In this document: positions 7,524-28,394 of the stretch, one piece after another
Layout: each line of letters begins with the position of its first letter
How positions within the stretch are numbered: the stretch's first letter is position 1
Assembly: GCA_964576935.1 (NCBI GenBank)
Contig: CAZNXD010000001.1
Location: 1 to 40,616, forward strand
DNA: 40,616 nt
Source: an uncultured Pirellulales bacterium
GTDB taxonomy: Bacteria; Planctomycetota; Phycisphaerae; Sedimentisphaerales; Anaerobacaceae
Reading direction: 5' to 3'
Notes under the pieces: generated by a model
Told to the model about the DNA's origin: nothing
Database searches by the model: none
What the model saw: the letters and a program-made list of their open reading frames with translations, nothing else
Translations under genes and position numbers: made by a program

Positions 7524-8498
7524 CTAGGAAGCGGTAGCGTCTGCCCGGATTCCGTATAGCCTACCTACGCTCCGGGGGTCAATGGTGGCTAGACCTAACG
7601 GCCAGTCAACCATAGTCCGGTATACAGGCTTGGACTCCAGAAGTCCCATGTCCTCGACTTCGAGCGGGTACTCCTGTATGCCCCAGGTCATGTCACCTAT
7701 GCCGAATTTAATGGCGTAGATGCTGGTCTCGTAGGAACCGCCTCCATCAGACTCGGTGTTGGTGATTATCTCCGTGGTCTGGTCGGCCTTGACTCCGATG
7801 TCAATTAGTCTCGCTCCCTGGTACACATCAATAGTCCTGTCGAACATGTCCTTAGTCTGGTCGAGCAGTTTCTCTCTGCGTAGGAGTGAGCGAAGGGCTA
7901 GGAGCATCTTCTTGTTCATGAGTAGATAATCTGGATTATGCCCCTTGATGGCGTAGATGAGCTGGTCGAGCTTGTCGAGGAAGGAGTGTCGAGCAGCTTC
8001 GGTGCGAAGAATACCATAGTCAGTAGTATCGGCCAAGTCAATCAGCTGGTCAGTAAACCCTGCATCGTAGACATCATCTACCCGCTTGTCCAGGCCTTTG
8101 AATTCCTCCGGGTCTGATGTAGGATTACCATTAATCATCTTGTCGTTGAACTTGTAGACCATAGCCTTCAGCATCATGTTCTGCTGAATAGCTCTGGCAT
8201 CGGCAACGGTGTTCTTGGCCCTGGCGATGGCTTTGTCAGTGTCGATGTAGCCACCGGCAAGGGAGATGTTCTCCACTGCGTGCTCGAAGGCTCCGGTGGA
8301 TTCGCTGTAGCCCTCGTTGATTTTGCGGAAGCCAACGCTAGGCAGGCTGGAAATCTTCACAATGGAGGTGGAGAGCGCACCGAGGGTTTCCCAGGGGATA
8401 ATCTCCATAAGGTTAGATTCCATTATGAAAGTATCAATGACTGACTTACGCAGCGGGTCAGTTTCGATTTTACTTAATTCTGCTAAGTTCCAGGCCAT
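7524..8498 (-). CDS. Major capsid protein (HK97-fold type inferred)
   Basis: 324 aa, strong RBS AAGGAGG, directly after a coiled-coil scaffold gene, with the size and position typical of capsid genes. The assignment rests on synteny and general sequence character. Confidence 0.7.
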   Translation of the reverse strand: MAWNLAELSKIETDPLRKSVIDTFIMESNLMEIIPWETLGALSTSIVKISSLPSVGFRKINEGYSESTGAFEHAVENISLAGGYIDTDKAIARAKNTVADARAIQQNMMLKAMVYKFNDKMINGNPTSDPEEFKGLDKRVDDVYDAGFTDQLIDLADTTDYGILRTEAARHSFLDKLDQLIYAIKGHNPDYLLMNKKMLLALRSLLRREKLLDQTKDMFDRTIDVYQGARLIDIGVKADQTTEIITNTESDGGGSYETSIYAIKFGIGDMTWGIQEYPLEVEDMGLLESKPVYRTMVDWPLGLATIDPRSVGRLYGIRADATAS

Positions 8499-8510: not shown

Positions 8511-9089
8511 TTATTTTTTATCGCTAGATTCATATGCTAGGGCAGCTAACTCCATCGGACTTTTTCCTTGTAAATTACCACCGCCACCTGCTCCGCCAGC
8601 CGCATAGTTTCCCAGCGGCTTCCCTGTTACAGAAGCTAACGCCTCTGCATATACCTCAAGCTTCTCTATGGTATCCTTAGAATCCACAGTAGCCCTCGGT
8701 ACTCCATAGGTATTCACAATAAGTGTCCGTTGAAGTTCCAGGAGCTTTGTACCAAGCCCCTCACCGCTAGTCTTGGCGGTCTGCAAGTCTGCTTTCAACT
8801 TCTCGGTCTCGGCTGCAGATGCCGTGCCTTTGGCTAGCTGTTCTTCCAGACTAGTAACCTTAGCCTCAGCTTGGAGTGTTGCTTGCTTCGCAGTCTCCAG
8901 TGCCTCCTTTGAATCGCCTCCACCCGAAGCTTGAAGGTCTTTCAACTGCTGCTCAACAGACTCCTTGCTCCCCTTCAGCGTAAGCAAATCAGCCTCTTTA
9001 ACGTATCGGACTTCTGCTTCCCCGTCCTTTACTATAAGAGCACCATCTTCGCCTATACTCCCGGTCAGATTGTTGTTGCCTTCTACCAT
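8511..9089 (-). CDS. Scaffolding protein
   Basis: 192 aa, rich in Ala/Glu/Lys/Leu/Gln, with heptad-like segments (LEEQLAKGTASAAETEKLKADLQTAK). It sits immediately upstream of the capsid gene. Confidence 0.7.
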   Translation of the reverse strand: MVEGNNNLTGSIGEDGALIVKDGEAEVRYVKEADLLTLKGSKESVEQQLKDLQASGGGDSKEALETAKQATLQAEAKVTSLEEQLAKGTASAAETEKLKADLQTAKTSGEGLGTKLLELQRTLIVNTYGVPRATVDSKDTIEKLEVYAEALASVTGKPLGNYAAGGAGGGGNLQGKSPMELAALAYESSDKK

Positions 9090-9215: not shown

Positions 9216-12200
9216 CTAGTCAATAACTCGCCCTGTCTGGGAGCTTACTTGGCGGAATAGCTTCTCTGCCTGAGGGGTCTTCAAGGAGGTAACTCGGCCC
9301 CAGTAGAAGAGCCAAGCATCTAGGTGAGGGTTCTTGTACCGGAGTGCTTCCCGAGTCTGGGAGACGTCTGAGCGGAAGCTGGAGATTAGCTTATCCCCAG
9401 TCTTACCTGATGCTATCTCCTTTATAGCAGCTTGTCTGTCTAATTTCTGCTGTGAACTCTCGAGGAATAAGAACTCCTTAATTATTGCCTGCTCATCCTC
9501 TGGGTAGGACTGGAGTGTAGCATCCCAAATGTCGTAGTATTTGCGGAAGTAATTTCCGTAGACATCGTGCCAGACTTCCATCATGGGGGCTGTGTTGCGA
9601 GTTATGTAGTCGCTCCACTTGCCCTTATCCTCATCTGGTATAGCCGCCTCAATCATCTCACGGTTTGCCCAGAACTTATCCCAGTCATATACTCGCTCAC
9701 CAGAGCCTGGGTCAACAGTCTCCTCTAGCTCTATGGAGAAATACATGGACATAAGCTCGTTGTATGGGGACTGGACTGGCATAGTTGTACCATATTTCAT
9801 ATAGTACTCAGTTCTGTTCTCCAATAGCATGAGGGGATTGGCTTTCATCTTCTCATCAATATAAGTCCTCCGCTCAGAATATAGGGATTTGACTCTGGAC
9901 AGGAATGTGTCTGGGGTAAGTCTACCACGCTCAGACCCGGTCAAAAAGTCCTGTTGCAACTCTAGTATTGTTTCTTTCTGCTGCTCTGAGTAAACTCGAA
10001 CATCAGCCCAGTCTAATTCTATCTTATTGAGAATCTCTTGCTGTAAGGAGGGGAGGACAGGATTGATGCTGCCACTATACTTGAACAGCTCTAGTTCCTG
10101 TAGGGCTGCTGATTCCCACGGCTCTAGTCCACCAAGCATATCCCAGAGCTTATAATTGTGCTGGCGAGCATATTTCTGCTGCTCTGCCGAAATGCCCCAG
10201 GTGTCGGCTATGAATTGCTCGGAAGCCTTGTATATAGCGTAGGAGTCATCGGACTTCATACGCATCATACCAGTCTGTTCGAAGAGGGCACTGTGGACTG
10301 CTACGGAACGTCTAGCCTCTGTCCACATCTGCTCCTCCTCCAGGGTGAGTTCCTGACCAGCTCTCATCTTGGCGAAGATAAGGCTACCATCGCCGCCTAA
10401 GTCATCTACACGGCGAGCGGCTAAGTATAGGCGGAAGTTCTCAGGGAATATCTTCTCTGATATGAAGGATACTATCTCGTTATCGGGGTAGGCAGCTATA
10501 AGTGCGTTGAGTGGGGTAGAGGCTGCGGAGGGTAGAATACCTCCAAGTGTACCCTGGCCAGAACCCCCGAACTGGGCTAGGGCTGCTCCGTACACTACAT
10601 TGGGATAGAAGCCGTAGCGACTGATTAAGTCCATAAGTTCAACTACACCGCCGAAGCCCTCGAGCTGGTCATAGTATTCGGGGTAGTCCTTGCGCATTAG
10701 ACGAGTAGACCAAGTGCCGAAGACTGTACCTCGGAGCGGATTAATGTCTATACTAGTGCTGGGAATGTGGACATAGCCATAGTCGGTGTTGTCTTCCCAT
10801 CTGCCCCAGGCTGTGAGAGTACCAGGCCGGCGGAAGAATGTTCGAGGGAGCCAGAACCAACGCTGGGACTCATATGTCCAGAACGGGTAGATGGACTTCA
10901 TGGTAGCGTCTACGATACTGGCATTGGTGTAGTCTGCGTACTCCTTGTAATACCACTTGTGGGACTCGTCTAGGGACTGCTGGCGGATGGTGTCGTAGTC
11001 GGTAAAGCCAGTCTTAGCTACGGTAGGGCCTACCTTGACTGGGGCAGTCATAGGCTTGCGCATGTACCCAGCTAGGACACTGGACTTGATGATAAGTTCA
11101 GACTCACCGACTGCACCAATGGAAACTACATCATCGACTTTGATGAGGATGTTGTCTATATCTACCCTACCAGCACGCTCAGAAATTACTTTATCCATAG
11201 CAGCAGCCTCAGCCACATCTATATCAGCTTTTGAATATCCTCCTGTTAGCTTACTCAAAAAGTCTTCCTTGTATAAATCAAGATTCTTCAATTCAGTGTC
11301 TGAAAATTGTCCTTGCCAAGTGTCCTCAAAGTCCACAGCAGTTTTCCTACTAGAAGTTACATTAACAAATTCTCTATCCAACGACCTCTTCCCTGCTTGT
11401 CCTGTACCTCTATATATCCTAATATACCCAGACGGATACTTTTCCCTAAGTAAGGCTCTGACCTTGGCTAGATATTCTGGGGATTCTGAGGCTAACCTAC
11501 CTATCCCCTGTAAGGCTCTATTATCCGAAACTTGGAACCAAGTGTCTGTGAGTGTCTTCAATGTGAGGTCTTGCCCTGTTGCATCCTTGAAGAATGGAGC
11601 CTCGTTCAGCTTAATATCTATTATTATTTTCTCAGATAACTTAACATCCTCTGCTGCTGAGATAAGTTCCTTACGAATCTTTTCCAGATAGGCGGGGTCG
11701 TCTACCAGCATATCAGCTTTCTCTACTCCAACAAGTTCAGATATTTCCTTTTCCTTCCCTGTAGGTACACGCTGACCAAGGCCAACATCATAGTCAGGTA
11801 CTAGCTGAGTAACTTTCCTCTTCTCATACATTACAGAATCCGCTGCCTTCACTGTCTCGTCTATGTAATTGTCTACAGCAGTCTTCTGCTCTCTAGGGAA
11901 GAGCTTCGCATTGTACAGTTCATGAAAGTCCTTCGTCATGCTCTCAATCTGCATCTGGCGAGTTCGGAACCAGCTGGAGGACTTGGGGTCTACGAGGAGG
12001 CTATTGGTAATCTGGTCGTATACGGACTCTACAGCTTCTCTGGTGAAGCCAACATCCTGGCCTTCCCGAGCCATACCTATGACGTACTCTACGAAGAAAT
12101 CCTTATCCCCCTCTACCAGCAAATTATCCATCAGCAATTTGCTAACATCATCGCCCCTACCACCGATTAGTCTGGCTACGTCTGCAGGGGCCAAAGGGCG

Positions 12201-15200
12201 ATTGCGAACTACTATGGAAGGCCGGGGAGTGAGAGCCACACCAGCTGCTCGGTTGATATCGTCTACAGCCTGGACTAGGCGGGAGTTGAGTGTAGCTATT
12301 TTCTTGTTCATACCATTCCAAAAGTTTTCTTCATGCGCATAGAAGTCGTCCCAGAAGTGCGGATTGCGAAGGTCTTTCTGGGTGGCAGCGGCAAAGTGTG
12401 ACTGACGATATGCTATGTCGCGGGAGCGGGCTGCGCCCATCTCCTGGCGTATAGTTGTAGTGAGGTCAAGGTAACGCTGGGTAGCAGACTTGTATACAGC
12501 GGTTTGGCCGATTTCTGTAGCTGCTACTTTCTCCACCACTCTATCTATGTCTCCAGCTGCATCGTCTAGGAAAGTATGTATCCGGTCAAACTCAAGGTCG
12601 AAGTGTTCTATTCTTTGCTCTATCTTCAGCCCCCTACTCTTCGCCGTTGCTCTCCCCATAATCTGATTAGGGAGTGCTCCATATGTCTGAGTCATCTTGT
12701 GGAGGTTCACAATTACTTCCGCAAGGTCATCGGGACTGGTAACTTCTAGTTCTGTCAATATATCTGCCAACTGTCGGAACTGCGCTCTAGCCTTCTCCGG
12801 GCCTTTGAGGAAGTCATCTAATTCGGCTTGCATTACTGAACCCTTCATGAAACTATCAATATTCTCAGGACTGCGCAATAGCTCCCGGTAATTCTGGAAG
12901 ACCAGGCTGCGGGATGTAGGGGAGACTTCGGGGTAGCGCATTAGAATATCATCCACCTCTACTCGATTAATCCTGTTACGAGTGAATCGGCTCTTGAGAT
13001 GACTGATAAGCTCAGTATTGTCTAGATTCAACTGGCCTGTTAGCTTAGCATTACGAACATCATTAGCTAACGCTCGTCTTACCCACTTGGGAGCGTTGTC
13101 TAATTCTGCAGGTAGATGCTTAGGGCCAGCTTGCAGCAATGCCTTATATGTGTCGCCACCAGCAGCAGCCAAGAGCTGTCTGTACTTGCCGAGGACAAAG
13201 TTTCTGCGCACATCCTGGCCTACACCACCAAATAGCTCTACCATAGTAGTATATGCTGCTTTGCTAAAACGAACAGGTGTTACTTTACCCCTTGTTGCTA
13301 AATATGTAGGAACACTCAAAGGTGAGAGGGAGGCAGTGAGTATCCAGTTAGCCCGCTGTGGGTCGCCCGTTTCTCTCAGCGGGCCTATCATTTCACTCAT
13401 ACCTGCTCGGCGAAGTTCAGGGTCTCCTAGCAATCCCATAGTGCCTATGTCCCACTGTTCGAGGGAAGCTCTGCCTGGCTTAACACCACCAAGGAAACTA
13501 CGGAACATATCTTCGAAGGTATTCATAGGGCCATACAGACCAAAGGTGAGATATGACTCGGCTGCTGGTCTAATAAGCATCCGGTCTAACTGCTTGAACC
13601 AAGGTCGGACTAGGCGGGAGTCTACATGATATGCGAGGGACATGAATCTACCAGATTTGCTGGCATATGTAGCTAATGCGCTCTCCCCCAACTTTGTATA
13701 GACCTTAAGCATTTTCCTACCATATGCTCGCATTACAGCATTGGCGGAGTCTTGTACGGCGAACTCTGCTGCGTTTTCTATAATATTATTAGCCTTGTTG
13801 GAAAGGTACCTGCCTATCATGGCAGTAGCATCGCCAGTAGTCTCGCCTAAATAAGTAACACCGAGCTTGGCTAGTAACATGTCTGTAGCTTCCACTCCCG
13901 TTATCTCCCGCTGAAAGAACCGCTCGAAGATTGTGTCTATGTCGAAGAGGGTGTCTATATTAACGCTGGCTGGCTCTATAGTATGCGCCCCTAAAGCTCT
14001 GACACGAGTAATGAGACTATTGACTTCTCGCTCATCTATGGGAGCATGGGCCAGCATTTCAACTGCGGCCTTGGCTATGTCGTCCTCGGCTCTGGGGTTC
14101 TCTACCCAGTGGGCTACTGCCGACTGTGCAGCCTCATACATGTCCTTTGGCTTGAGGAAGGACAGAGGAACCTTGCCTCGCTTGGTGTGGTTCTCGAAGA
14201 ATCGGTCTAGGACAGCCTGGGACTCCCTAGTAAGCTTTGACGCTCGCTGCACTACGGTCTTCGGGATAACATGCCCAGTCAGGTACTTGAGAGCATCAAA
14301 CGGCAAGTCCATAACTTCAGAGGCACTAGCAAAAGCTCCAGCTGCGGAACCTAATGTTCTAGAAGCAAACGACCCAGCTCTAGCCGAACCGGCTCCCCAC
14401 CTAAGAGCCACACCTGCCAGAGGAATCCAGGTCATGGGGTCTACAATTCCCTCCATGACCAGGTATTTAAGGGTAAAGTCAAAGACAGGCGGGCCAGGTG
14501 CATCCCACTGTTCCCAGGCATACACGAGAACTTCTCTATCAGAAGCTTCTGGATTAGTTCGCTTGAATTCTTCCTTAGCTCTACGAATGTCTGGAATCAT
14601 CCCGTATACCCAGCCAGCTGCTGGCATACTAACATGCTCGAAATACATGCTCAATACTTCGAGGGTATGGAGGGCTGGTTGGAGAGCGATGGACTTCATT
14701 AATTCTGCTCTTGTCTGCTCTGGGAACTTAATCCCGTTTGCCCTTATCTCATCAAGAAGGCTCTTGTGATTCTTAGCCTCAGCAATTAACTGTTCTGTAG
14801 TAATGGCCAGCTGTTGGTCTACGTCCTCGTCACTCCAGCCCTTGTCCTTCAAATGTGCGTTCATCTCTTCCTCAGTAAGGGCAGAGGCTGGAATCTGTGG
14901 TGCTCTTAGTGCAGACAATATTTCCTGCCTAGACAGTTGACTAATGGTTACGGGCTTTGCAGTTGTCTGCTCTGGAGGGGCTTCTAATGGGGGATATTCT
15001 AGTCCAAAGACATTATCCTGTACCTCCCCATTCTCATCAATTTGAGGAGAAGTGAATTGCTTATCTCTTGCTGCTATGAGTGAGCCTATGTCCATACGAA
15101 GTTGCTGGAACTCCGCTTCGTCTAAGTCAGGTGGTATGCTAGTAAAAGCAAGTGCTTCGTCAGTACTATTGACTGAGCCAGAGGACACTAGGGCTGGTAT

Positions 15201-15542
15201 GTAACTGTACAGTTCATCGTAGAAAGCCAAGTGCAAGATACTCTCAAGTTCTACCTGAGCAATATCTTCGGTCTGCTGGATATATTCCTTAGTTCCAGCT
15301 TGGTATGCTTCTATAAGAGGAGCAGAGGAGGGATGGAAGGAAGTAGGAAGCCGCTCATACCATTTCTTCCTCTCCGGGAACTTAGGCTGTACTTGTGGCT
15401 GGGTCTGCATGTCCTTAGCATCAGGCCATTGGGGAGGTACAGGTGTAGTACGAAGACGAAGCTGGAAAGCAGCCTCTTCTCTCTTCTTTCCCCACTCTGT
15501 TAGTTGCTTCTGGAACCCTTGTCCAAATGCTATATCAGGCAT
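9216..15542 (-). CDS. Giant head-module protein (2108 aa) with an embedded ADP-ribosyltransferase-like segment; probable packaged or ejected protein
   Basis: Uninterrupted 6.3-kb ORF with GAAGGAG RBS, located between the portal and scaffold genes. Confidence 0.85.
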   Translation of the reverse strand: MPDIAFGQGFQKQLTEWGKKREEAAFQLRLRTTPVPPQWPDAKDMQTQPQVQPKFPERKKWYERLPTSFHPSSAPLIEAYQAGTKEYIQQTEDIAQVELESILHLAFYDELYSYIPALVSSGSVNSTDEALAFTSIPPDLDEAEFQQLRMDIGSLIAARDKQFTSPQIDENGEVQDNVFGLEYPPLEAPPEQTTAKPVTISQLSRQEILSALRAPQIPASALTEEEMNAHLKDKGWSDEDVDQQLAITTEQLIAEAKNHKSLLDEIRANGIKFPEQTRAELMKSIALQPALHTLEVLSMYFEHVSMPAAGWVYGMIPDIRRAKEEFKRTNPEASDREVLVYAWEQWDAPGPPVFDFTLKYLVMEGIVDPMTWIPLAGVALRWGAGSARAGSFASRTLGSAAGAFASASEVMDLPFDALKYLTGHVIPKTVVQRASKLTRESQAVLDRFFENHTKRGKVPLSFLKPKDMYEAAQSAVAHWVENPRAEDDIAKAAVEMLAHAPIDEREVNSLITRVRALGAHTIEPASVNIDTLFDIDTIFERFFQREITGVEATDMLLAKLGVTYLGETTGDATAMIGRYLSNKANNIIENAAEFAVQDSANAVMRAYGRKMLKVYTKLGESALATYASKSGRFMSLAYHVDSRLVRPWFKQLDRMLIRPAAESYLTFGLYGPMNTFEDMFRSFLGGVKPGRASLEQWDIGTMGLLGDPELRRAGMSEMIGPLRETGDPQRANWILTASLSPLSVPTYLATRGKVTPVRFSKAAYTTMVELFGGVGQDVRRNFVLGKYRQLLAAAGGDTYKALLQAGPKHLPAELDNAPKWVRRALANDVRNAKLTGQLNLDNTELISHLKSRFTRNRINRVEVDDILMRYPEVSPTSRSLVFQNYRELLRSPENIDSFMKGSVMQAELDDFLKGPEKARAQFRQLADILTELEVTSPDDLAEVIVNLHKMTQTYGALPNQIMGRATAKSRGLKIEQRIEHFDLEFDRIHTFLDDAAGDIDRVVEKVAATEIGQTAVYKSATQRYLDLTTTIRQEMGAARSRDIAYRQSHFAAATQKDLRNPHFWDDFYAHEENFWNGMNKKIATLNSRLVQAVDDINRAAGVALTPRPSIVVRNRPLAPADVARLIGGRGDDVSKLLMDNLLVEGDKDFFVEYVIGMAREGQDVGFTREAVESVYDQITNSLLVDPKSSSWFRTRQMQIESMTKDFHELYNAKLFPREQKTAVDNYIDETVKAADSVMYEKRKVTQLVPDYDVGLGQRVPTGKEKEISELVGVEKADMLVDDPAYLEKIRKELISAAEDVKLSEKIIIDIKLNEAPFFKDATGQDLTLKTLTDTWFQVSDNRALQGIGRLASESPEYLAKVRALLREKYPSGYIRIYRGTGQAGKRSLDREFVNVTSSRKTAVDFEDTWQGQFSDTELKNLDLYKEDFLSKLTGGYSKADIDVAEAAAMDKVISERAGRVDIDNILIKVDDVVSIGAVGESELIIKSSVLAGYMRKPMTAPVKVGPTVAKTGFTDYDTIRQQSLDESHKWYYKEYADYTNASIVDATMKSIYPFWTYESQRWFWLPRTFFRRPGTLTAWGRWEDNTDYGYVHIPSTSIDINPLRGTVFGTWSTRLMRKDYPEYYDQLEGFGGVVELMDLISRYGFYPNVVYGAALAQFGGSGQGTLGGILPSAASTPLNALIAAYPDNEIVSFISEKIFPENFRLYLAARRVDDLGGDGSLIFAKMRAGQELTLEEEQMWTEARRSVAVHSALFEQTGMMRMKSDDSYAIYKASEQFIADTWGISAEQQKYARQHNYKLWDMLGGLEPWESAALQELELFKYSGSINPVLPSLQQEILNKIELDWADVRVYSEQQKETILELQQDFLTGSERGRLTPDTFLSRVKSLYSERRTYIDEKMKANPLMLLENRTEYYMKYGTTMPVQSPYNELMSMYFSIELEETVDPGSGERVYDWDKFWANREMIEAAIPDEDKGKWSDYITRNTAPMMEVWHDVYGNYFRKYYDIWDATLQSYPEDEQAIIKEFLFLESSQQKLDRQAAIKEIASGKTGDKLISSFRSDVSQTREALRYKNPHLDAWLFYWGRVTSLKTPQAEKLFRQVSSQTGRVID
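11040..11480 (-). other. ADP-ribosyltransferase-like domain (approximate bounds, aa ~1355-1500 of the giant protein)
   Basis: YIRIYR(1378)G, then NVTS(1397)S(1398)RKTAVDF, then AVGE(1480)SE(1482)LIIKSS. This is the Arg / S-x-S / E-x-E order of the R-S-E ART class. Confidence 0.55.
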
Positions 15543-15566: not shown

Positions 15567-17240
15567 CTATTGGCCGGTTGTATTCATAGGAGGTGCAGCG
15601 CCTTGAGGAGGAACAGCCTCTGGTCTGTTACCGTAGGGAAGCTGAGAGCCGCCTTGCTGTGGCTGTTGCTGCCCCATAAGCTGCTGCTCCCTAGCGTTAG
15701 CAACCTTCTCATACAGCTCTGCAGCTTCTAAGTCCTTAGCCCTACGTAAGAGATTCGCTTCGTCTCTCAGAGCCTGTACAAGATTGATGGCAGCAAATAC
15801 AGGGTCACGTCTAGCTGTACCAGCATCACGTCTGGCAATCTCCTCGGCAGGATTGCGAATCTCCGGGAAGTCCCATTCCATAATCCGCTCTTCGCTAAGG
15901 GTGAAATCGGGATTAAGCATACGGGCGTTGGTCGCTCGCTGGGTAAGGTCACCAGGTATCCTTAATTCGTATTCGGCAGAAATCTCGAAGTCCTCGGGGA
16001 GGCCAGCTGGTAATGTCCTCCCATATGGTTTATAGCCAAATTCCTTCATCTGATATGCCCAGGAATTATCAATATCACTAATGCAATCTATGATGCCCCT
16101 GTGGAAAGGCTTGGCTGTGTTATTGGTAGAAGCTACTACCTGGCTCATTACATAGGCAGTCATGCCGCTGGAGACATTACCATACTGTGACCAAGTAGGG
16201 CCTCCACGCTGCATCATGGCTTCCATGTCCAACTGGGTACTGCGGATTTCTCCTGGCATAGGAGGAGGATTCAAATAGCCAAGTTCATCTTGCTGGCCCA
16301 GCTTAAAATGCGCTCCTCGTGCATCCCAGTCCTCAGGTTTGACTATTCTATTAGTACCTGCAGATTTCTCATATGTTCTTGGCTGGGCAGTGTCTCTGAG
16401 TATCTGGAGAACAAATGTCCACCACTTGTCGAAGGACTTGTAGATGTTCTCGTTAGTGGCTAGGGGAGGCTGGCCTATCTCTCCCTTCCAGCGGTCTGAC
16501 CTGCGAATGTTTATTTCCCCAGTGTCTGGCAAACCACCAATAGGAGAGACATAAATTGGGATGCGACTAAGCCGCAGTTCTGCAGTATCTGGCTTTACTA
16601 GTATGTTCCCTAGGACTACGGCGTTGTGAACTTTGCCTCCGTCATCAAGCCACCAGTAGTCATAACAAGTAGCTCTGTCCATGTTAGTAGAAAACTCCCA
16701 ATGGTTGCGAGTAGCTAACCGCTTGGCCTGGGAAGAGGACAGGCTCCAGATATGCGGGCACTCGGTAAGCGTATCATCCCAGATTGGGAAGACTGTAGCT
16801 GGATTCCAAGGCTCAGTAATACAAGTAGAACCATCTACGCTAATCAGAGAAAAGACAGAATACCAGCCAGTAGATATTAAGAAACCAATAAGGTCACGCA
16901 TGAAGTACCGGCCTCGCTGTCTATAGCCATTCTGTACCTTACTCCAAATATATTCGAAGTTGGCAGATAGCTCGGCTGCTGGTATTGTTTCCTCCATAGT
17001 CAAGTTCTCTGGCTTTATGCGGTGAGGAATCTTCTGGTCAAGGACACTTAGAATTAGGTTAAAGGCTGCCCTGGGGTCGTTACCTACAAAAGACTCCATG
17101 TTCTTCTGCGCCAGTCTATCAATCATCTGAATCTGCTCATACCAGTCTTTGAATCTCCGGTTCCGCTCACCCCAGTATTTCTTCAGTGTGTCGCAGCGGG
17201 CGACTACATTTGCACTAGTCATTGTATTACTAACTGTCAT
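15567..17240 (-). CDS. Portal protein
   Basis: 557 aa, immediately downstream of the large terminase, with a Gln/Pro-rich C-terminal tail. The assignment rests on size and synteny. Confidence 0.7.
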   Translation of the reverse strand: MTVSNTMTSANVVARCDTLKKYWGERNRRFKDWYEQIQMIDRLAQKNMESFVGNDPRAAFNLILSVLDQKIPHRIKPENLTMEETIPAAELSANFEYIWSKVQNGYRQRGRYFMRDLIGFLISTGWYSVFSLISVDGSTCITEPWNPATVFPIWDDTLTECPHIWSLSSSQAKRLATRNHWEFSTNMDRATCYDYWWLDDGGKVHNAVVLGNILVKPDTAELRLSRIPIYVSPIGGLPDTGEINIRRSDRWKGEIGQPPLATNENIYKSFDKWWTFVLQILRDTAQPRTYEKSAGTNRIVKPEDWDARGAHFKLGQQDELGYLNPPPMPGEIRSTQLDMEAMMQRGGPTWSQYGNVSSGMTAYVMSQVVASTNNTAKPFHRGIIDCISDIDNSWAYQMKEFGYKPYGRTLPAGLPEDFEISAEYELRIPGDLTQRATNARMLNPDFTLSEERIMEWDFPEIRNPAEEIARRDAGTARRDPVFAAINLVQALRDEANLLRRAKDLEAAELYEKVANAREQQLMGQQQPQQGGSQLPYGNRPEAVPPQGAAPPMNTTGQ

Positions 17241-17250: not shown

Positions 17251-18858
17251 TTATCCCCAGCCATCTTTCCATCCCTTTGCCCCTATAAGTCCTCGTTCTA
17301 CTGGTACGGAACTCCGGCAAACTATGGCTATACCAAGACTATCATGGTAGTCGTCTGCACCTATGGAAGTAGGAATGATGGTGCTACCGGATTTTATTTC
17401 CTTTATATTCCTACACTGCTCAATGATGCGAATATCGTGACATTCGATAACTGGTAGGAGCCGGGCCACTTCATTGCACATATACTTCTTCGTACTCCGG
17501 TTAGTCTGCCAGCCTACCTTCTTCCCAACCAGTCCAGTATCCGGGTCTGTTCTATAGTACAGGTCAGGGTAATCACTAATATAACCTACGAATCCTAATG
17601 CGTCCTCTGTAGCTATAGTTGCTCCATTATAGTATCTAGCCAAGTCCTTAGACTTCTGTGCCATATCTGGCTGGTCATATAGACCGGCAAGGGTGGCTAC
17701 ATGGCGCATAAGGACATCACCAGCGGCAACCCAGACAGTGGCTACAGACTTCGACTTCTTCCCCTCTCCGGGGTCTATGGCGACTAGGTACTTCTGACCT
17801 TCCTGCGGATGCTCCCATATGTCAGCGAAGTAGGCGTGGGAAGGAGCTTCATAACAGTCTCTGGCCATGTCGTTAATCCGCTCATGGTCATACCACATAT
17901 CTCCAGCAGCCTGGAAACAGGTTACATCGTCCTCTGGGTATTCCTGACCGAATAGAAGAACATGCTCGCTGCTGCGGCGGAGACTGGCGAATTCTACTCG
18001 CTTGTATCTACGCCAACGAAGCTTGTTGTGGCCATCCTGCATGGATACGCCCATAGCCTCGAAGCGGAGTAATAGGGCTATCTCGTCATCAGACAAATTG
18101 GGAAGTATAGGCTCCTCGTCTCCTGGTAAAGCGTAGGGGCTGTATGGAAGAAGGCTGTACTCTGGATGCTGATACCAGGCATAAAAGTGAGCTTTGAATA
18201 TAGACTGGCCAATGTCTTTGCCTTCTTTGGCTGCCATATACAGTTCAAAGAAATCATTATCCTCCCCATTAGGTGTGCTTAATGCCCGAACCTTAGTATT
18301 CGGAAGGAGAGGTACACGTTGGAGTGCAGCAGCAAAAGCATCGGCTGCAGTACCTAATGGCCAGAAGCCTAACTCGTCTAAGAGCAAATTATGAATCGGC
18401 TCACCACGAGGCATGGAGAAAGACTTAGCACTGGCTATATAGAAACTGCTCTCACCATGCTTCTTCCCCTTGCTATCCCTAAACTCATAGGTCTTTTCAA
18501 ACGTAGACTTATGCTTGAGTTCGGGAATAGTATTATTCTCCTTATACAGATTATCATATATAGCCTGGGCTTTGCGTAGAAGACGGCCAGTAATAAACTC
18601 GTCATAACTGATAATGACAGAAGTTGTGCCAGGGATAGTAATGCAATCTAGTAGATAATCGCACATGAAGAGGGTGGTTGCGCCTACTTGGGAAGGCTTC
18701 ACATAGACATCCCTGGATGTGGAAGTATCATACATATCATTCTGGATTGGGTTGAAGATAAAGGGCACAAGTTGTCTGTCCTTACCCTCAACTCGAATGA
18801 CAGATTCGATAAGTCTACGCCGGTCTATTACTGGTACAGTTCGTTCTTCGACTACCAT
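17251..18858 (-). CDS. terL: Terminase large subunit
   Basis: Walker A-like KPSQVGATT and Walker B LLLDELGF, followed by an RNaseH-like nuclease half beginning YLVAIDPGEG. 535 aa. Confidence 0.85.
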   Translation of the reverse strand: MVVEERTVPVIDRRRLIESVIRVEGKDRQLVPFIFNPIQNDMYDTSTSRDVYVKPSQVGATTLFMCDYLLDCITIPGTTSVIISYDEFITGRLLRKAQAIYDNLYKENNTIPELKHKSTFEKTYEFRDSKGKKHGESSFYIASAKSFSMPRGEPIHNLLLDELGFWPLGTAADAFAAALQRVPLLPNTKVRALSTPNGEDNDFFELYMAAKEGKDIGQSIFKAHFYAWYQHPEYSLLPYSPYALPGDEEPILPNLSDDEIALLLRFEAMGVSMQDGHNKLRWRRYKRVEFASLRRSSEHVLLFGQEYPEDDVTCFQAAGDMWYDHERINDMARDCYEAPSHAYFADIWEHPQEGQKYLVAIDPGEGKKSKSVATVWVAAGDVLMRHVATLAGLYDQPDMAQKSKDLARYYNGATIATEDALGFVGYISDYPDLYYRTDPDTGLVGKKVGWQTNRSTKKYMCNEVARLLPVIECHDIRIIEQCRNIKEIKSGSTIIPTSIGADDYHDSLGIAIVCRSSVPVERGLIGAKGWKDGWG

Positions 18859-23839: not shown

Positions 23840-24133
23840 ATGGAGAGTTATGCTACGTTAAGATGTCAGGCGCAGATAGAGGCTGGTATTACGGAGGCCA
23901 ACAGCAAGGAAGGTATAGATTTCTGTATACACCAGTGCCCGTATAAGGATGGCTGTATTCTATTTGACTCGGCCACGATTAAGGGGAATAGAGTAAAGGC
24001 TAGAAAGATTATGGCAGACTTTACTAATAGACTATATAAACACGGAGTCTCGGTAAAGGATATAGGTATGATTATAGGGAAAGATAAGAGAACAGTACAC
24101 AGGCTGATTAACTATGCACGTTTGGATAAGTAA
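23840..24133 (+). CDS. Early HTH DNA-binding protein, 97 aa, apparently leaderless
   Basis: The ATG begins 7 nt after the last base of the -10, and there is no SD. The C-terminal segment VKDIGMIIGKDKRTVHRLINY is HTH-like. Confidence 0.65.
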   Translation: MESYATLRCQAQIEAGITEANSKEGIDFCIHQCPYKDGCILFDSATIKGNRVKARKIMADFTNRLYKHGVSVKDIGMIIGKDKRTVHRLINYARLDK

Positions 24134-24515
24134 AGCGAGGAAGGAAGCTACCTGCGCTTATTGCGAGAAGCCGATACTGAACAACTCCTACTTCGTAATG
24201 TGTACTTGGTACATGAATACGAAGGGAGGAAAGAGCTGGTTGAAGGAAAAGCGGCTACACCCGGAGTGCTGGCTTGAACAAGGAATTGCGGAGGTGGAGA
24301 AGAGGTCAATTACGGAGACTAGAGGAGGAAGGAACAGGCTGGTGATTACGGATGGGGATAGGGAAATCAGGATGAAGATACTGAGGAAGAGAGCAGCACT
24401 AGCACAAAGGGCCAGAGTAACTACGGATATGACAAAGCTGCTAAGGCTGTTAGGTAAGATGGACAAGTGTAAGGAAGAGGTAATGCTGTACGGGGGAGTA
24501 CCAGCAAAATGGTAA
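24114..24515 (+). CDS. Early hypothetical protein with CxxC...HxxC metal-binding pattern, 133 aa
   Basis: Intact ORF overlapping the upstream gene by 20 nt. CAYC and HPEC motifs are present. Confidence 0.6.
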   Translation: MHVWISKARKEATCAYCEKPILNNSYFVMCTWYMNTKGGKSWLKEKRLHPECWLEQGIAEVEKRSITETRGGRNRLVITDGDREIRMKILRKRAALAQRARVTTDMTKLLRLLGKMDKCKEEVMLYGGVPAKW

Positions 24516-24748
24516 GGAATAAGAATAGTAAGAACTTCAATATAGCTGGCAAGGACAATTCTGTGCAAAGGTCGTCCTATAATGACTATGTGAAGGCAGG
24601 GGAATGGAGGTGCCCCGAATCCCCTACTGGTGCGCATTACTGGGTAGAGCTGGTGGGGGAGATATCGAAGAAGGGCATAGGGCTGTTCATGTGTAAGTAC
24701 TGCTCGGCTACTAAGGAAATGCCGACTAGTATAACGACATCGCTTTAA
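24509..24748 (+). CDS. Early small Cys-containing protein, 79 aa
   Basis: ATGGTAA overlap with the upstream stop. CPESPTGAHYW...CKYC pattern. Confidence 0.6.
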   Translation: MVRNKNSKNFNIAGKDNSVQRSSYNDYVKAGEWRCPESPTGAHYWVELVGEISKKGIGLFMCKYCSATKEMPTSITTSL

Positions 24749-25066
24749 TACTGCATCATTGTACAGGATGCTACATCTTATGCAACTAGCAACTTTGTGT
24801 GAGGCTGAAAATTACGCTAAGAGAAATAGGAACGTATATATAACACTGTAAAGAGGCGGTACCGTATGCCCCTAGCCGATGATATATATTCTATACAATA
24901 TACAAGCTGGCAGGTACAGAAACTGTATGGTTTATATGCTATATTGTACAGGGTGTTGCTGGTTTATATTATATACCTTCCCCCATGCAACAACCAGGCC
25001 CAGTCTCCTGGGTGGTAGGTGGCCTGGCCGGTTCAAAAATTCTTTTTAAAAATAATCCGTAACCCC

Positions 25067-25095
25067 TTGACAAATGGGGTAGGATGTGTTATGAT
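25067..25095 (+). promoter_or_regulatory. Sigma70-type promoter
   Basis: TTGACA (25067..25072), a 17-nt spacer, then TATGAT (25090..25095) with TGt extended -10. Confidence 0.65.
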
Positions 25096-25272
25096 ATAGG
25101 TAATTGAATATGACATGGTGATATGAAGGCAATGTATATGGCAACAGGTTACAGGCTATACGCCTGACACAACAGGGCAAGGCATCCATTGAGGAGCAGG
25201 TGAAACTGTATGATGGGGGAAACCTGTCCGGCTACAATTGAATAAGGTCTGGGCTGCTGGGAGGTGATAAGA

Positions 25273-25446
25273 ATGTATAATGTACTCCTAGATGTCCAAA
25301 AGCTGGAACTGGTTAATGAGATTGTCAATACGCCTGAGCCTGAGCGAACTGAACGCTTTGGCACCAAATGGCCTGATATTGTAAGCCTGATAATGGTTTA
25401 CATAATTGACCAGATACAGGAGATGGCAAAACTAGTGCAGGCTTAA
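25273..25446 (+). CDS. Small hypothetical protein, 57 aa
   Basis: ATG 25273 lies 6-7 nt after GGGAGGTG. The track start at 25264 is a GTG inside the RBS. Confidence 0.5.
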   Translation: MYNVLLDVQKLELVNEIVNTPEPERTERFGTKWPDIVSLIMVYIIDQIQEMAKLVQA

Positions 25447-25544
25447 TGCCTGCCAGCAGCTCAGACAATCGCTTACAAAGTGGCAACGTTGTGGGTTTAT
25501 ACTATATCTATAATATTAATAAATATAAAGGAAGGTGTAAACTT

Positions 25545-26114
25545 ATGACAGAGGAAATAACCGAGACGGAAGAGCAGATACAGGCCGCAATGAAGCAGGC
25601 TATGGAAGCCAATGACTGGAATCAGGTCAAACGACTGGCCGCTGACTTGGACAAAATGGCGAAAGCTGAACAGGCCAAGGCCAAGGCTGAACTCCAATCC
25701 AAGCTGGCCGGTATCACGGACAAGGCCAAGAAAGCCTTTGATGCACTGGCTCAGAAGCTGATGGACACTGGAGACTACGATGGAGCTGATGGCTTCTGGT
25801 ACGTGAAGGACTTTGGAGATGCCAGCACTGGGATGAGGCTAACCAAGACTGCCAAACGTGTGAGTACTGGGGATAGCGCTGGCAAGTCCAGCTATGTGGC
25901 CGGTTTCCCGCCAAACAAGGAGATGCTGGACTTGGTAGGAGACATGGTGATGTTCGAAGCTGACACTACAGTCACTATCGACAAGGCTGAGCATACCATA
26001 TCTGCAGGGACTACGTTCAAGGAAGCTCATGACTATAGCAATAACGGAGGCTGGAGAAATAGGGTAAGGATGAGTCTGGGGAAGGCTTACACGAAGGCAA
26101 CAGGCGATAACTAG
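25545..26114 (+). CDS. Hypothetical protein, 189 aa, with N-terminal coiled coil
   Basis: ATG 25545 is preceded by AAGGAAGGTG. The residues upstream of it in the track ORF look non-coding. The N-terminal third is Ala/Lys/Glu-rich. Confidence 0.65.
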   Translation: MTEEITETEEQIQAAMKQAMEANDWNQVKRLAADLDKMAKAEQAKAKAELQSKLAGITDKAKKAFDALAQKLMDTGDYDGADGFWYVKDFGDASTGMRLTKTAKRVSTGDSAGKSSYVAGFPPNKEMLDLVGDMVMFEADTTVTIDKAEHTISAGTTFKEAHDYSNNGGWRNRVRMSLGKAYTKATGDN

Positions 26115-26136
26115 GTATACCCAATAAGCGGAAGAG

Positions 26137-26185
26137 ATGGAGCAGGACTAGTTGCTATCCTGCTCCATTTCTTTCTGTTTCTTTC
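26137..26185 (+). terminator. Rho-independent terminator
   Basis: Perfect 11-bp stem ATGGAGCAGGA/TCCTGCTCCAT (26137..26147 and 26158..26168) with a 10-nt loop, followed by TTCTTTCTGTTTCTTTC. Confidence 0.8.
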
Positions 26186-26308
26186 TATTCAATACAGTTC
26201 AATAAGGGGATGGCTAGGGGTAGGCTGTGTGTGTAATCAATGGGCTGGTGGAATGGCTTGTTGATACCGTCAACTGGGGATATGGATGTTATACTTTGGG
26301 GGGATGGA

Positions 26309-26338
26309 TTGACTTGGGTCGGTGCTGTATGGTATAAT
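26309..26338 (+). promoter_or_regulatory. Sigma70-type promoter of the small-gene early operon
   Basis: TTGACT (26309..26314), an 18-nt spacer, then TATAAT (26333..26338) with TGg extended -10. Confidence 0.65.
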
Positions 26339-26378
26339 GGACTATGGGATTGAATATGGGTACTGGTAAGGAGGCAGC

Positions 26379-26555
26379 ATGGAGACTAAATACTGTCCTG
26401 AGTGTGGGGAGAAGTCACTGTGCTTCATTGAGCAATGTGATGCTAGTGAGGGAGAGACAAAGGCTAGCTGGACTTGCGATTGCTGTACAAATATAGTCTA
26501 TATCTATGAGTCTGTAGATGAGGATTTTGGGTATAAGAAAGTGGTGCTAAGATAA
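26379..26555 (+). CDS. Zinc-ribbon protein, 58 aa
   Basis: AAGGAGG RBS. CPEC...CDCC pattern. It is below the track cutoff. Confidence 0.6.
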   Translation: METKYCPECGEKSLCFIEQCDASEGETKASWTCDCCTNIVYIYESVDEDFGYKKVVLR

Positions 26556-26566
26556 GGAGGCAACAA

Positions 26567-26710
26567 ATGGAAGTTAGGATTGTTAAGAAACTTGACATGC
26601 TGGGCAAACCATACTATGTAGTACAAGAGATAGTAACACCTGATGGTAAGTACATAGAATGGAATGAGATATTTGCTACGCAAGAAGCTGCTATAAGAGC
26701 GGCTACATAA
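26567..26710 (+). CDS. Small hypothetical protein, 47 aa
   Basis: AAGGAGG RBS 6 nt upstream of the ATG. It is below the track cutoff. Confidence 0.55.
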   Translation: MEVRIVKKLDMLGKPYYVVQEIVTPDGKYIEWNEIFATQEAAIRAAT

Positions 26711-26734
26711 GGGGAATTTGCTTAGGAGATAAGG

Positions 26735-27034
26735 ATGAAGACTATAGACAAGGGCAAAGGGTATGTGTATTTGCTTCACTTTGATAAGCCCTATCGCCAT
26801 GCTCGGCACTACCTAGGCAGTACGAATGACCTTGATGGTAGACTGGCCAGGCATAGGGAAGGCAACGGAGCTAGGCTGATTCAAGTAGTGACCGAGGCAG
26901 GTATAGGCTTCAGTCTTGCTAAGCTCTGGGTCTTTGATACGGAAAAAGAAGCTAGGGTGTTTGAGAGAGGAATGAAGAAGAGAAAGAATACACCACAGTT
27001 CTGCCCGTTGTGTAATAGGGAGAAGCTAGTATGA
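26735..27034 (+). CDS. GIY-YIG family nuclease, 99 aa
   Basis: GYVYLL ... HYLGSTNDLDGRLARH ... E matches the GIY-x(10)-YIG, Arg and Glu layout. The C-terminus has CPLC. Confidence 0.8.
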   Translation: MKTIDKGKGYVYLLHFDKPYRHARHYLGSTNDLDGRLARHREGNGARLIQVVTEAGIGFSLAKLWVFDTEKEARVFERGMKKRKNTPQFCPLCNREKLV

Positions 27035-27138
27035 GAAAGTCTAGGGCTTGGTCAATAGCAATACTTCTACTAATATTCCTAAGTCTAGGCTTGGGGGTGT
27101 CAGTAGTGGTATTGCTGGGCATGGTTCCAGTAAATTAA
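27031..27138 (+). CDS. Tiny single-pass membrane peptide, 35 aa
   Basis: ATGA overlap with the GIY-YIG stop. Sequence is MRKSRAWSIAILLLIFLSLGLGVSVVVLLGMVPVN. Confidence 0.4.
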   Translation: MRKSRAWSIAILLLIFLSLGLGVSVVVLLGMVPVN

Positions 27139-27158
27139 GATACTGCTAGGGGGGCAAC

Positions 27159-27395: not shown

Positions 27396-27459
27396 AGCTG
27401 TGGAGTACGCAGAGTATTGGCCTGAACTTGACAATGTAGTTCAGCTGGAGGACAATACA

Positions 27460-27749: not shown

Positions 27750-27767
27750 TCTATAAGGGAGGATACA

Positions 27768-27953: not shown

Positions 27954-27955
27954 CC

Positions 27956-28291: not shown

Positions 28292-28394
28292 GGACTTTCC
28301 CATACGCCAGCCAGGTCAGTCATACCGCCAGCACGCTTTGAACAAAAGGGCATGGAGAGTAAAAGGAAAGAAATAGAAGAAAGGAGGAGGCACA

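What the first reader, a model, noticed from the sequence alone, without database searches (positions are those of the whole stretch)
9216..15542. Giant 2108-aa portal-adjacent protein with an embedded ADP-ribosyltransferase-like R/S/ExE signature
A single 6.3-kb ORF fills the slot between portal and scaffold. In many tailed phages that slot holds a much smaller SPP1 gp7 / Mu gpF-type minor head protein, so this protein is probably packaged in the capsid and ejected.

About two thirds of the way in I read three motifs in order. They are GYIRIYR(1378)GTG, then FVNVTS(1397)S(1398)RKTAVDF, then VSIGAVGE(1480)SE(1482)LIIKSS. This is the Arg, S-x-S and E-x-E order of the R-S-E ADP-ribosyltransferases (C3, VIP2 and T4 Alt type). 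The hydrophobic run after ExE also fits that class.

The domain is internal. It is not C-terminal as in MuF-linked polymorphic toxins. Roughly 1350 aa upstream and 600 aa downstream show nothing I can recognise.

There is a caveat. The R-to-S spacing (19 aa) and S-to-ExE spacing (82 aa) differ from the roughly 40+40 spacing of classical toxins, so the call remains a hypothesis.
Basis: partly seen in the sequence, partly recalled or inferred. Interest (0 to 1): 0.8.

Follow-up and report, generated by a model that had tools for sequence, protein, structure and literature searches.

The report
Giant phage protein carrying mini-ADP-ribosyltransferase cassette
A 2108-residue protein of an uncultured phage, encoded next to the head genes, has a large conserved backbone with swappable enzyme modules inserted in it, and here the module is a very small, previously unannotated domain that looks like a toxin-type ADP-ribosyltransferase.

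Summary

The bare R/S/ExE triad is not beyond chance: it occurs in 90% of shuffles. However, the motifs lie in a discrete domain of about 130-170 aa. That domain recurs in 87 protein clusters, with R, T/S and above all E1482 conserved.

Pfam, PHROGs and NCBIfam do not recognise the domain. Three results point to an R-S-E ADP-ribosyltransferase:
- A 55-sequence profile has a PF03496-family ADP-ribosyltransferase (Lmo0066) as its best PDB match (E=1.7e-4).
- An AlphaFold model puts R, T/S and ExE in strands 1, 2 and 5.
- The model of an insert-free homologue (pLDDT 92) finds almost only ADP-ribosyltransferases in the PDB. The best is ExoS (E=0.009), so these matches are individually weak.

The domain is a cassette. 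Homologues share an N block (aa 1-1240) and a C block (aa 1515-2108). Between and within these they carry nothing, this domain, or cassettes with other signatures: a D12 methyltransferase, HExxH motifs, and weak GNAT and PARP-like matches. These sit at two fixed sites.

This is a new variant of the known polyvalent, head-packaged effector theme. Packaging, ejection and enzyme activity are inferred, not shown.

The parts
9216..15542 (-). Giant ORF, 2108 aa (protein P0001)
   Evidence: There are 16 giant homologues and 40 IMG/VR loci.
11823..15542 (-). Conserved N block, aa 1-1240. No recognisable domain and no strong hydrophobic (transmembrane-like) segment.
   Evidence: BLAST blocks; alignment A1; no Pfam or PDB match; hydropathy.
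12492..12527 (-). Insertion site A (aa 1006-1017). It is empty in this protein. Homologues carry cassettes of about 110-360 aa here.
11001..11822 (-). Insertion site B cassette (aa 1241-1514): a linker plus the mini-ART domain. Homologues have 11-616 aa at this site.
   Evidence: This is the lowest-GC stretch of the gene (GC 0.43, GC3 0.39, against 0.48 and 0.58 in the flanks).
11058..11561 (-). Mini R-S-E ART-like domain (aa 1328-1495). Order of elements: three helices, strand 1, strand 2, helix, insert, strands 3-5, helix.
   Evidence: AlphaFold model pLDDT 85. 87 related proteins. PDB profile hit Lmo0066 at E=1.7e-4. ART-fold hits for the insert-free homologue model.
11409..11411 (-). R1378 in Y-R-G at the end of strand 1. 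Predicted NAD-binding Arg.
   Evidence: R in 78 of 88 domains.
11349..11357 (-). T1396-S1397-S1398, the equivalent of the STS motif, at the end of strand 2. It is followed by a helix carrying A1402 and F1405.
   Evidence: (aligned to YISTTTDKEIAKKF of 2kxi).
11160..11318 (-). Lineage-specific helical insert (aa 1409-1461) between the post-STS helix and strand 3.
   Evidence: Much shorter in P0006 and absent in P0011 and P0015. pLDDT about 70. GC3 is 0.29 over the overlapping stretch aa 1406-1460.
11097..11105 (-). E1480-S-E1482 at the start of strand 5. E1482 is the predicted catalytic Glu.
   Evidence: E1482 present in 83 of 84 domains.
9216..11000 (-). Conserved C block, aa 1515-2108. This is the most conserved part of the protein (up to 74% identity).
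   Evidence: No match in phage records.
15567..17240 (-). 557-aa upstream neighbour. Portal by position only.
   Evidence: Conserved synteny. No portal-family hit even with an 18-sequence profile.
17251..18858 (-). Large terminase subunit.
   Evidence: phrog_2 at 2.7e-14. GpA_ATPase match, weak.
8511..9089 (-). 192-aa downstream neighbour. Scaffold by position only.
   Evidence: No family hit. A gene of 194-200 aa occupies the same place in L001 and L002.
7524..8498 (-). Major capsid protein.
   Evidence: phrog_212 at 5e-63; PF20911 at 7.5e-17. At most 36% identity to capsid proteins of cultured phages.

Best explanation
The gene encodes a large virion-associated carrier protein of an uncultured phage with a genome of about 40 kb.

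The conserved N block (aa 1-1240) and C block (aa 1515-2108) form the carrier. The carrier is probably incorporated into the head next to the portal and expelled with the DNA. Two fixed internal sites accept interchangeable effector cassettes.

In this phage, site B holds a miniature ADP-ribosyltransferase of the R-S-E type, about 115 aa of core plus a 50-aa lineage-specific insert. R1378 and T1396/S1397 are predicted to bind NAD+. E1482 is predicted to catalyse transfer of ADP-ribose. Because the motif is ExE, the likely acceptor is an arginine of a host protein, and the likely timing is at the very start of infection, as with T4 Alt.

Shown here: the ORF, the domain family and its conservation, the cassette architecture, the gene order, and fold-level similarity to ADP-ribosyltransferases (ARTs).

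Inferred, not shown: catalytic activity, the target, and packaging and ejection.
For: Cassette architecture.
- N and C blocks are conserved in 16 homologues, with variable content between them.
- Among 54 family proteins there are 55 cassettes of at least 60 aa in 17 BLAST clusters. Seven proteins have both sites empty.
- The same domain sits at site B in P0001, P0006 and P0011, at site A in P0015 and P0026, and at both sites in P0020.

Other cassettes look like enzymes.
- D12 N6-adenine methyltransferase, PF02086 at 1.6e-13.
- GNAT-like, E=0.0016, below the Pfam cut-off.
- PARP-like H-Y type, E=0.0053, below the cut-off.
- HExxH motifs, by eye and regular expression only.

ART nature of the query cassette.
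- 87 relatives with R, T/S, A..F and ExE conserved.
- The 55-sequence profile's top PDB hit is Lmo0066 at E=1.7e-4, aligned through the N-terminal helices, YRG and the STS region.
- The two relatives retrieved with an Lmo0066 fragment both carry PF03496. Phage Acj61 Alt matches Lmo0066 at 2.7e-7.
- AlphaFold models have pLDDT 85 and 92, with the triad in strands 1, 2 and 5.
- Foldseek with the insert-free model returns, in its top 50, almost only ART-fold structures. These include ExoS (E=9e-3, probability 0.95), Tre1, Vis, cholera and pertussis toxins, PARP10/12/14/15 and CNFy.
- hhalign against 12 Alt domains aligns all three motifs in order, P=0.025.

Polyvalent-protein context.
- Elsewhere the domain shares polypeptides with LPD38, DUF7178, ART-PolyVal and the D12 methyltransferase, at separate positions.

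Virion context.
- The gene lies between the terminase/portal-position genes and the scaffold-position/capsid genes, and this order is conserved.
- Iyer et al. 2017 and 2022 describe head-packaged ARTs and polyvalent proteins.
Against: - No Pfam, PHROG or NCBIfam ART model matches the domain, even at E up to 5.
- The query's own model found no ART in the PDB.
- No Foldseek hit reaches E<1e-3, and TM-scores are about 0.35-0.43.
- The hhalign probability is only 1.9%, and an Alt HMM does not find the family.
- The models show five strands followed by a helix. Strand 6 of the canonical fold is not seen.
- The loop before ExE is only 2-3 residues long.
- R is replaced by K or H in about 10% of members.
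- No MuF domain, no portal-family hit for the neighbour, and no virion data exist.
- The backbone has no recognisable membrane or portal-binding feature.
Confidence: 0.5

Rival explanations
1. The domain has the ART fold but is not a protein ADP-ribosyltransferase. It could hydrolyse NAD+ (depleting or countering NAD-based defence signalling), or modify nucleic acid or a small molecule.
For: Fold hits span the whole ART superfamily, including PARPs, not only arginine-specific toxins. The target-recognition loop before ExE is nearly absent. Iyer et al. 2022 list NADase and nucleic-acid-modifying ART families in phages.
Against: An ExE motif with both Glu conserved (76 of 84 and 83 of 84), together with YRG and an STS-like motif, is the signature of protein-arginine-modifying R-S-E enzymes. 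This rests on established knowledge of C3/VIP2/Alt and cholera-toxin-type enzymes. The best sequence match is to PF03496.
Confidence: 0.2
2. The domain is a non-catalytic structural or binding module of a head or internal-core protein. The resemblance to ARTs is then either convergent or a relic.
For: No curated ART model matches. All structural matches are weak. The domain is smaller than any characterised ART. R varies to K or H in some members.
Against: Near-invariance of E1482, and conservation of exactly the residues that bind NAD in ARTs, is hard to explain without catalysis. The domain is dispensable for the backbone: seven cassette-less homologues exist. It is also interchangeable with cassettes that carry enzyme signatures.
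Confidence: 0.12
3. The giant protein is made late but is not ejected. It might be an assembly or scaffolding factor, or an enzyme that acts in the producing cell. Alternatively it is a MuF-like polymorphic toxin used against competing bacteria rather than against the infected host.
For: Packaging is inferred from gene order only. There is no MuF domain. The portal-position neighbour has no detectable portal homology.
Against: The gene order (terminase, portal-position gene, giant gene, scaffold-position gene, capsid gene) is conserved in every long contig examined. The same mini-domain occurs in proteins with the hallmark domains LPD38 and ART-PolyVal of polyvalent proteins. The domain is internal and no immunity-type gene follows it; the next gene is the scaffold-position gene. 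No relative was found in 185,579 reference genomes, so no prophage copies were seen.
Confidence: 0.15

Closest known systems
Polyvalent proteins of phages and conjugative elements (Iyer, Burroughs, Anand, de Souza, Aravind 2017, PMC5512222)
   Same: A very large protein encoded among virion genes. The repertoire of modules matches that paper's hub domains: ART, N6-adenine methylase, HExxH peptidase-like and GNAT. The mini-ART co-occurs with LPD38, DUF7178 and ART-PolyVal in other proteins. The predicted delivery route, with the DNA, is also the same.
   Different: The query has only one recognisable enzymatic module and no Pfam LPD domain. Modules are inserted at two fixed internal sites of a conserved backbone of about 1800 aa, rather than strung in variable order. 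[quoted passage not shown]
T4 Alt and MuF-ART fusions (Alt/VIP2 family, Pfam PF03496)
   Same: An R-S-E triad with aromatic-R-G, an STS-like motif followed by A..F, and ExE followed by hydrophobic residues. Head-gene context. Alt is packaged and injected. Many Alt/VIP2 ARTs are fused to MuF.
   Different: There is no significant sequence match to Alt and no PF03496 or MuF match. The domain is about half the size. R-to-STS spacing is 13-20 aa, against about 25-45 in Alt and the classical toxins. It is internal, not terminal.
Phage P1 DarB (own knowledge; named as an exemplar in PMC5512222)
   Same: A head-packaged protein of more than 2000 aa carrying an enzymatic module. The homologue P0012 carries a DNA methyltransferase cassette at the same site as the query's ART.
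   Different: No sequence similarity was detected. DarB has methyltransferase and helicase domains, not an ART.
MuF-linked polymorphic toxins of temperate phages (Jamet et al. 2017; own knowledge)
   Same: The gene sits in the slot after the portal, and the toxin-type domains are variable.
   Different: No MuF domain. The variable domain is internal. No adjacent immunity gene, and no prophage copies were found.

Membership tests
R-S-E clade ADP-ribosyltransferases (C3/VIP2/Alt, PF03496) | Arg (aromatic-R-G) in strand 1 | tested here: met
   Y1377-R1378-G1379 closes predicted strand 1. R is present in 78 of 88 family domains.
R-S-E clade ADP-ribosyltransferases (C3/VIP2/Alt, PF03496) | S-T-S-type motif at the end of strand 2, followed by a helix | tested here: met
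   T1396-S-S, then helix with A1402 and F1405. Aligned to the STT and STTT motifs of Lmo0066 and 2kxi.
R-S-E clade ADP-ribosyltransferases (C3/VIP2/Alt, PF03496) | ExE/QxE at the start of strand 5, with the second Glu invariant | tested here: met
   E1480-S-E1482 opens strand 5. E1482 is present in 83 of 84 domains and E1480 in 76 of 84.
R-S-E clade ADP-ribosyltransferases (C3/VIP2/Alt, PF03496) | Match to a curated ART family model | tested here: not met
   No ART family in Pfam (whole protein at E up to 1, cassette at E up to 5), PHROGs or NCBIfam.
R-S-E clade ADP-ribosyltransferases (C3/VIP2/Alt, PF03496) | Sequence-profile similarity to a solved ART | tested here: met
   Profile A3 gives Lmo0066 (8za7_B) as the top hit of 177,635 sequences, at E=1.7e-4. 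Relatives of an Lmo0066 fragment carry PF03496. For calibration, genuine Alt scores only 0.18-0.9 against other solved ARTs.
R-S-E clade ADP-ribosyltransferases (C3/VIP2/Alt, PF03496) | ART fold by structure comparison | tested here: inconclusive
   The insert-free homologue model (pLDDT 92) has a top-50 that is almost all ART-fold, but the best E is 9e-3 and TM-scores are about 0.4. The query's own model (pLDDT 85) gave no ART hit. Only five strands are predicted.
R-S-E clade ADP-ribosyltransferases (C3/VIP2/Alt, PF03496) | NAD+-dependent ADP-ribose transfer | not testable with these tools
   Needs biochemistry.
Polyvalent proteins (Iyer et al. 2017) | Two or more domains of disparate biochemical activity in one polypeptide | tested here: inconclusive
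   The query has one recognisable enzymatic module. Among relatives, P0006 has an HExxH cassette plus the mini-ART, and P0041 has a D12 methyltransferase plus the mini-ART.
Polyvalent proteins (Iyer et al. 2017) | Encoded with virion or packaging genes | tested here: met
   The terminase and major capsid genes flank the locus, and the order is conserved.
Polyvalent proteins (Iyer et al. 2017) | Hallmark LPD or MPTase-PolyVal / ART-PolyVal domains | tested here: not met
   None in the query or in its 16 homologues. They are present in other carriers of the mini-ART.
Polyvalent proteins (Iyer et al. 2017) | Packaged in the virion and injected | not testable with these tools
   No cultured relative.
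MuF / SPP1 gp7 minor head proteins (PF04233) | Phage_Mu_F domain | tested here: not met
   No hit in the query (E up to 1) or in any of the 17 family members.
MuF / SPP1 gp7 minor head proteins (PF04233) | Gene directly after the portal gene and before the scaffold gene | tested here: inconclusive
   The position fits, but the portal and scaffold identities are positional only.
ART-PolyVal (PF18760, H-Y-D) | H, Y and D in strands 1, 2 and 5, and a match to PF18760 | tested here: not met
   The residues are R, T/S and E. There is no PF18760 hit. In P0065 the two domains are separate: ART-PolyVal at 572-653 and the mini-ART at 770-880.

The most novel reading that the evidence does not exclude
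The N and C blocks form a dedicated injection chassis with two defined sites for effector cassettes. At these sites an uncultured phage lineage exchanges effector cassettes; those carrying recognisable signatures are the mini-ART, a Dam-type methylase, and GNAT-like, PARP-like and HExxH-bearing modules. The mini-ART is the smallest functional R-S-E ADP-ribosyltransferase known. It would be a new ART family whose host target differs from those of Alt.
Probability: 0.4. Interest if true: 0.7.

Novelty: new variant of a known kind. Interest (0 to 1): 0.58.

Why it matters
If the domain is active, it defines an ADP-ribosyltransferase family that current databases miss. It occurs in at least 87 protein clusters at 50% identity. 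At about 115 residues it would be a minimal model of the R-S-E catalytic core.

The backbone-plus-cassette layout gives a natural comparison series: the same carrier with an empty site, the mini-ART, a methylase, or cassettes with GNAT-like, PARP-like or HExxH signatures. That series could show which first-minute host manipulations phages select for, and how large proteins are packaged and expelled through the portal.

It also extends the polyvalent-protein concept to R-S-E ARTs, which the defining paper reported as absent from such proteins.

Tried and rejected
- Whole protein against Pfam, PHROGs, PDB sequences and 50,697 phage genomes: nothing.
- C block alone against phage genomes: nothing.
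- Family profile A1 against PDB sequences: only noise.
- Cassettes against Pfam at E up to 5, and against NCBIfam: no ART family for the query type.
- Foldseek with the query's own model against the PDB: no ART. Against BFVD: only uncharacterised phage proteins.
- The search for homologous proteins with the domain alignment returned only 3 proteins, so it was of no use.
- hhalign against a single Alt sequence: probability 0.4%.
- An Alt HMM against the family: nothing.
- The search for related loci with Alt found only Alt itself.
- Two literature searches, for 'Lmo0066' and '2KXI', were uninformative.
- Portal test with an 18-sequence profile against the PDB and Pfam: nothing.
- GTDB genomes: no relative, so no host could be named.
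- No transmembrane-like segment in the giant protein. No terminal repeat in the window.

Readings considered and rejected:
- MuF membership: no PF04233 match.
- Tape-measure protein: wrong position in the gene order.
- PD-(D/E)xK or GIY-YIG nuclease readings of the motifs: the conserved residues do not fit.

Full report
OBSERVATION

The ORF is real. It runs 9216-15542 on the minus strand, starts with ATG, has a GAAGGAG ribosome-binding site 7 nt upstream, and encodes 2108 aa. The three peptides and the residue numbers R1378, S1397/S1398 and E1480/E1482 are exact.

The triad alone means little. A loose R..SxS..ExE pattern appears in 90% of shuffles of this protein. A stricter [YF]R..[ST]3..ExE[LIVM]2 pattern appears in 1.3% of shuffles, and once in the real protein.

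The whole protein has no match in Pfam, PHROGs, PDB sequences or 50,697 phage genomes.

SURROUNDINGS

On the same strand, in order:
- the large terminase subunit, 17251-18858 (phrog_2, 2.7e-14);
- a 557-aa gene, 15567-17240;
- the giant gene;
- a 192-aa gene, 8511-9089;
- the major capsid protein, 7524-8498 (phrog_212, 5e-63; PF20911).

'Portal' and 'scaffold' are positional labels. The 557-aa protein matches no portal family, even as an 18-sequence profile. The same gene order is kept in related contigs.

The plus strand from 24 to 40 kb carries early-type genes: a primase/helicase-like gene, a gene with an HNH motif, and a DNA methyltransferase.

ARCHITECTURE OF THE FAMILY

Sixteen homologues of 1461-2443 aa exist, all from metagenomes. 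A further 40 loci are in IMG/VR, on contigs of up to about 47 kb. None was found in GTDB reference genomes.

All share an N block (query aa 1-1240) and a C block (aa 1515-2108; up to 74% identity). They differ at two fixed sites. Site A corresponds to query aa 1006-1017 and is empty here. Site B corresponds to aa 1241-1514.

Among 54 proteins with both anchors there are 55 cassettes of at least 60 aa, in 17 BLAST clusters. Seven proteins have both sites empty, so the backbone of about 1800 aa stands on its own.

Cassette types seen:
- D12 N6-adenine DNA methyltransferase (P0012; PF02086, 1.6e-13);
- GNAT-like (P0007, E=0.0016, below the Pfam cut-off);
- an H-Y, PARP-like module (P0014; PF00644, E=0.0053, below the cut-off);
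- HExxH-bearing modules (about 11, by motif only);
- a ParB-like module (P0013 site A, by eye only);

It occurs at site A in P0015 and P0026, and at both sites in P0020. So it is a mobile module, which explains why it is internal.

In the query, the cassette is the lowest-GC stretch of the gene. GC3 is 0.39, against 0.48 in the N block and 0.58 in the C block.

IS THE DOMAIN AN ADP-RIBOSYLTRANSFERASE?

Evidence for:

1. An exhaustive profile search found 87 representative proteins at E<1e-3, and 40 at E<1e-10. About half are members of this giant family. The rest are small proteins of 120-440 aa or unrelated large proteins.
   - Conservation over 88 domains: R in 78; T/S at T1396 in 82; A1402 in 79; F1405 in 70; E1480 in 76 of 84; E1482 in 83 of 84.
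   - An invariant second Glu with a more variable first position is the known behaviour of ExE/QxE in R-S-E ARTs (established knowledge).
   - The context also resembles the signatures seen in Alt, iota toxin and Vis: Y-R-G, V-T-[ST]-x4-A-x2-F, and G-x3-E-S-E-L-I-I-P.

2. A 55-sequence profile searched against 177,635 PDB sequences puts Lmo0066 (8za7_B) first, at E=1.7e-4. The alignment runs through the N-terminal helices, YRG and the STS region. C3larvin (E=0.92) and 2kxi (E=0.79) also appear. I believe 2kxi is NarE; that is my own knowledge.
   - The two relatives retrieved with an Lmo0066 fragment both carry PF03496.
   - Phage Acj61 Alt hits Lmo0066 at 2.7e-7, but hits other genuine ARTs only at 0.18-0.9. 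So weak scores are normal within this clade.

3. The AlphaFold model of the query domain has pLDDT 85. It shows three helices, strand 1 ending in YRG, strand 2 ending in VT, a helix, two insert helices, strands 3 and 4, and strand 5 starting at ExE. Iyer et al. describe this strand 1/2/5 placement for ART active sites.

4. The model of an insert-free family member (P0015 cassette; pLDDT 92, pTM 0.84) was searched against the PDB. Its top 50 consists almost entirely of ART-fold structures:
   - ExoS (E=9e-3, probability 0.95);
   - CNFy fragments, whose domain 4 is ART-like (own knowledge);
   - the Tre1 toxin;
   - Vis, cholera toxin and pertussis toxin;
   - PARP10, 12, 14 and 15.

5. hhalign against 12 Alt ART domains aligns all three motifs colinearly (P=0.025).

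Evidence against:
- No curated ART model matches.
- The query's own model, with its insert, finds no ART.
- No Foldseek hit is below E=1e-3.
- The hhalign probability is 1.9%.
- Only five strands are predicted.
- The loop before ExE is 2-3 residues long.
- R is K or H in about 10% of members.

My reading is a genuine but extremely reduced R-S-E ART domain. I put the fold at about 0.8 and catalytic activity at about 0.6.

The 82-aa gap contains a helical insert of about 50 aa (aa 1409-1461). This stretch is much shorter in P0006 and absent in the minimal members.

CONTEXT IN OTHER PROTEINS

The mini-domain shares polypeptides with hallmark domains of polyvalent proteins, at separate positions:
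- P0080: mini-ART at 1430-1555, DUF7178 at 1688-1781, LPD38 at 2752-2930.
- P0065: ART-PolyVal at 572-653, mini-ART at 770-880.
- P0041: D12 methyltransferase at 1274-1505, mini-ART at 1634-1812.

MECHANISM

The most likely mechanism has three steps. All three are inferred from gene order and from the Alt, MuF-ART and polyvalent-protein precedents.
1. The backbone is built into the head near the portal.
2. The protein leaves with the DNA.
3. The cassette ADP-ribosylates a host protein early in infection. The ExE motif suggests an arginine acceptor.

COMPARISON WITH KNOWN SYSTEMS

The protein works like a polyvalent or head-packaged effector. It is not a MuF protein (no PF04233 match). It is not ART-PolyVal (R-S-E rather than H-Y-D residues, and no PF18760 match).

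Iyer et al. [quoted passage not shown] This family would be an exception. Its layout, with two fixed insertion sites in a conserved backbone, is also distinctive.

VERDICT

The finding is a new variant of a known kind. It is of moderate to good interest, and biochemistry and virion data are still needed.

Noticed in passing
P0012 aa 1204-1524 (locus L001); P0041 aa 1274-1505: Homologues carry a D12-class N6-adenine DNA methyltransferase at the same site B where the query has the mini-ART. This is reminiscent of the methyltransferase in head-packaged P1 DarB.
   Followed up: partly
P0014 aa 1206-1387 (locus L002): The site B cassette has LYHGT...GVYFY, an H-Y-type ART signature. It gives weak PARP (E=0.0053) and RNA 2'-phosphotransferase (E=0.056) hits. 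So a second, unrelated ART clade may use the same slot.
   Followed up: partly
Site A of P0002, P0006, P0007, P0008, P0009, P0028, L020, L022, L036, L047: Cassettes of about 145-360 aa carry HExxH; in P0002, P0006, P0008 and P0009 a downstream conserved (D/H)E.F..(E/D)F..W was also seen by eye. They look like zincin peptidases, but no Pfam model matched the one tested (P0002).
   Followed up: partly
L027, L029, L030, L032, L033, L043, L049: Seven family members have both insertion sites essentially empty (32 aa or fewer), giving a bare backbone of about 1800 aa. P0020 has the mini-ART at both sites.
   Followed up: yes
window 15567-17240 (-): The portal-position protein (557 aa) is well conserved among relatives (mean column identity 52%). 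Yet it matches no portal family in Pfam, PHROGs, the PDB or phage genomes, even as a profile.
   Followed up: yes
window 11001-11822 (-): The cassette is the lowest-GC part of the gene (GC3 0.39; 0.29 in the insert). The adjacent C block has GC3 0.58. This is compatible with recent acquisition.
   Followed up: partly
P0047 (5994 aa): This giant protein has 22 partial matches to positions 67-116 of the domain profile (the strand region). It may be a repeat protein or a multi-copy array.
   Followed up: no
window ~23.8 kb; 24000-40616 (+): The strand switch between the structural (minus) and early (plus) modules coincides with a change of sign in GC skew. The early module holds a primase/helicase-like gene (30054-30908), a 534-aa ORF with a weak HNH match (34876-36480) and a separate DNA methyltransferase (38670-39473). 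There are no tRNAs and no terminal repeat.
   Followed up: partly
BFVD hits A0A0F6R7E8 (Sinorhizobium phage phiM9) and A0A5S9HX97 (Tenacibaculum phage PTm1): Small uncharacterised proteins of cultured phages resemble the mini-ART model (E=6e-3 to 1e-2, TM-score about 0.45). They could serve as experimentally tractable stand-alone versions.
   Followed up: no
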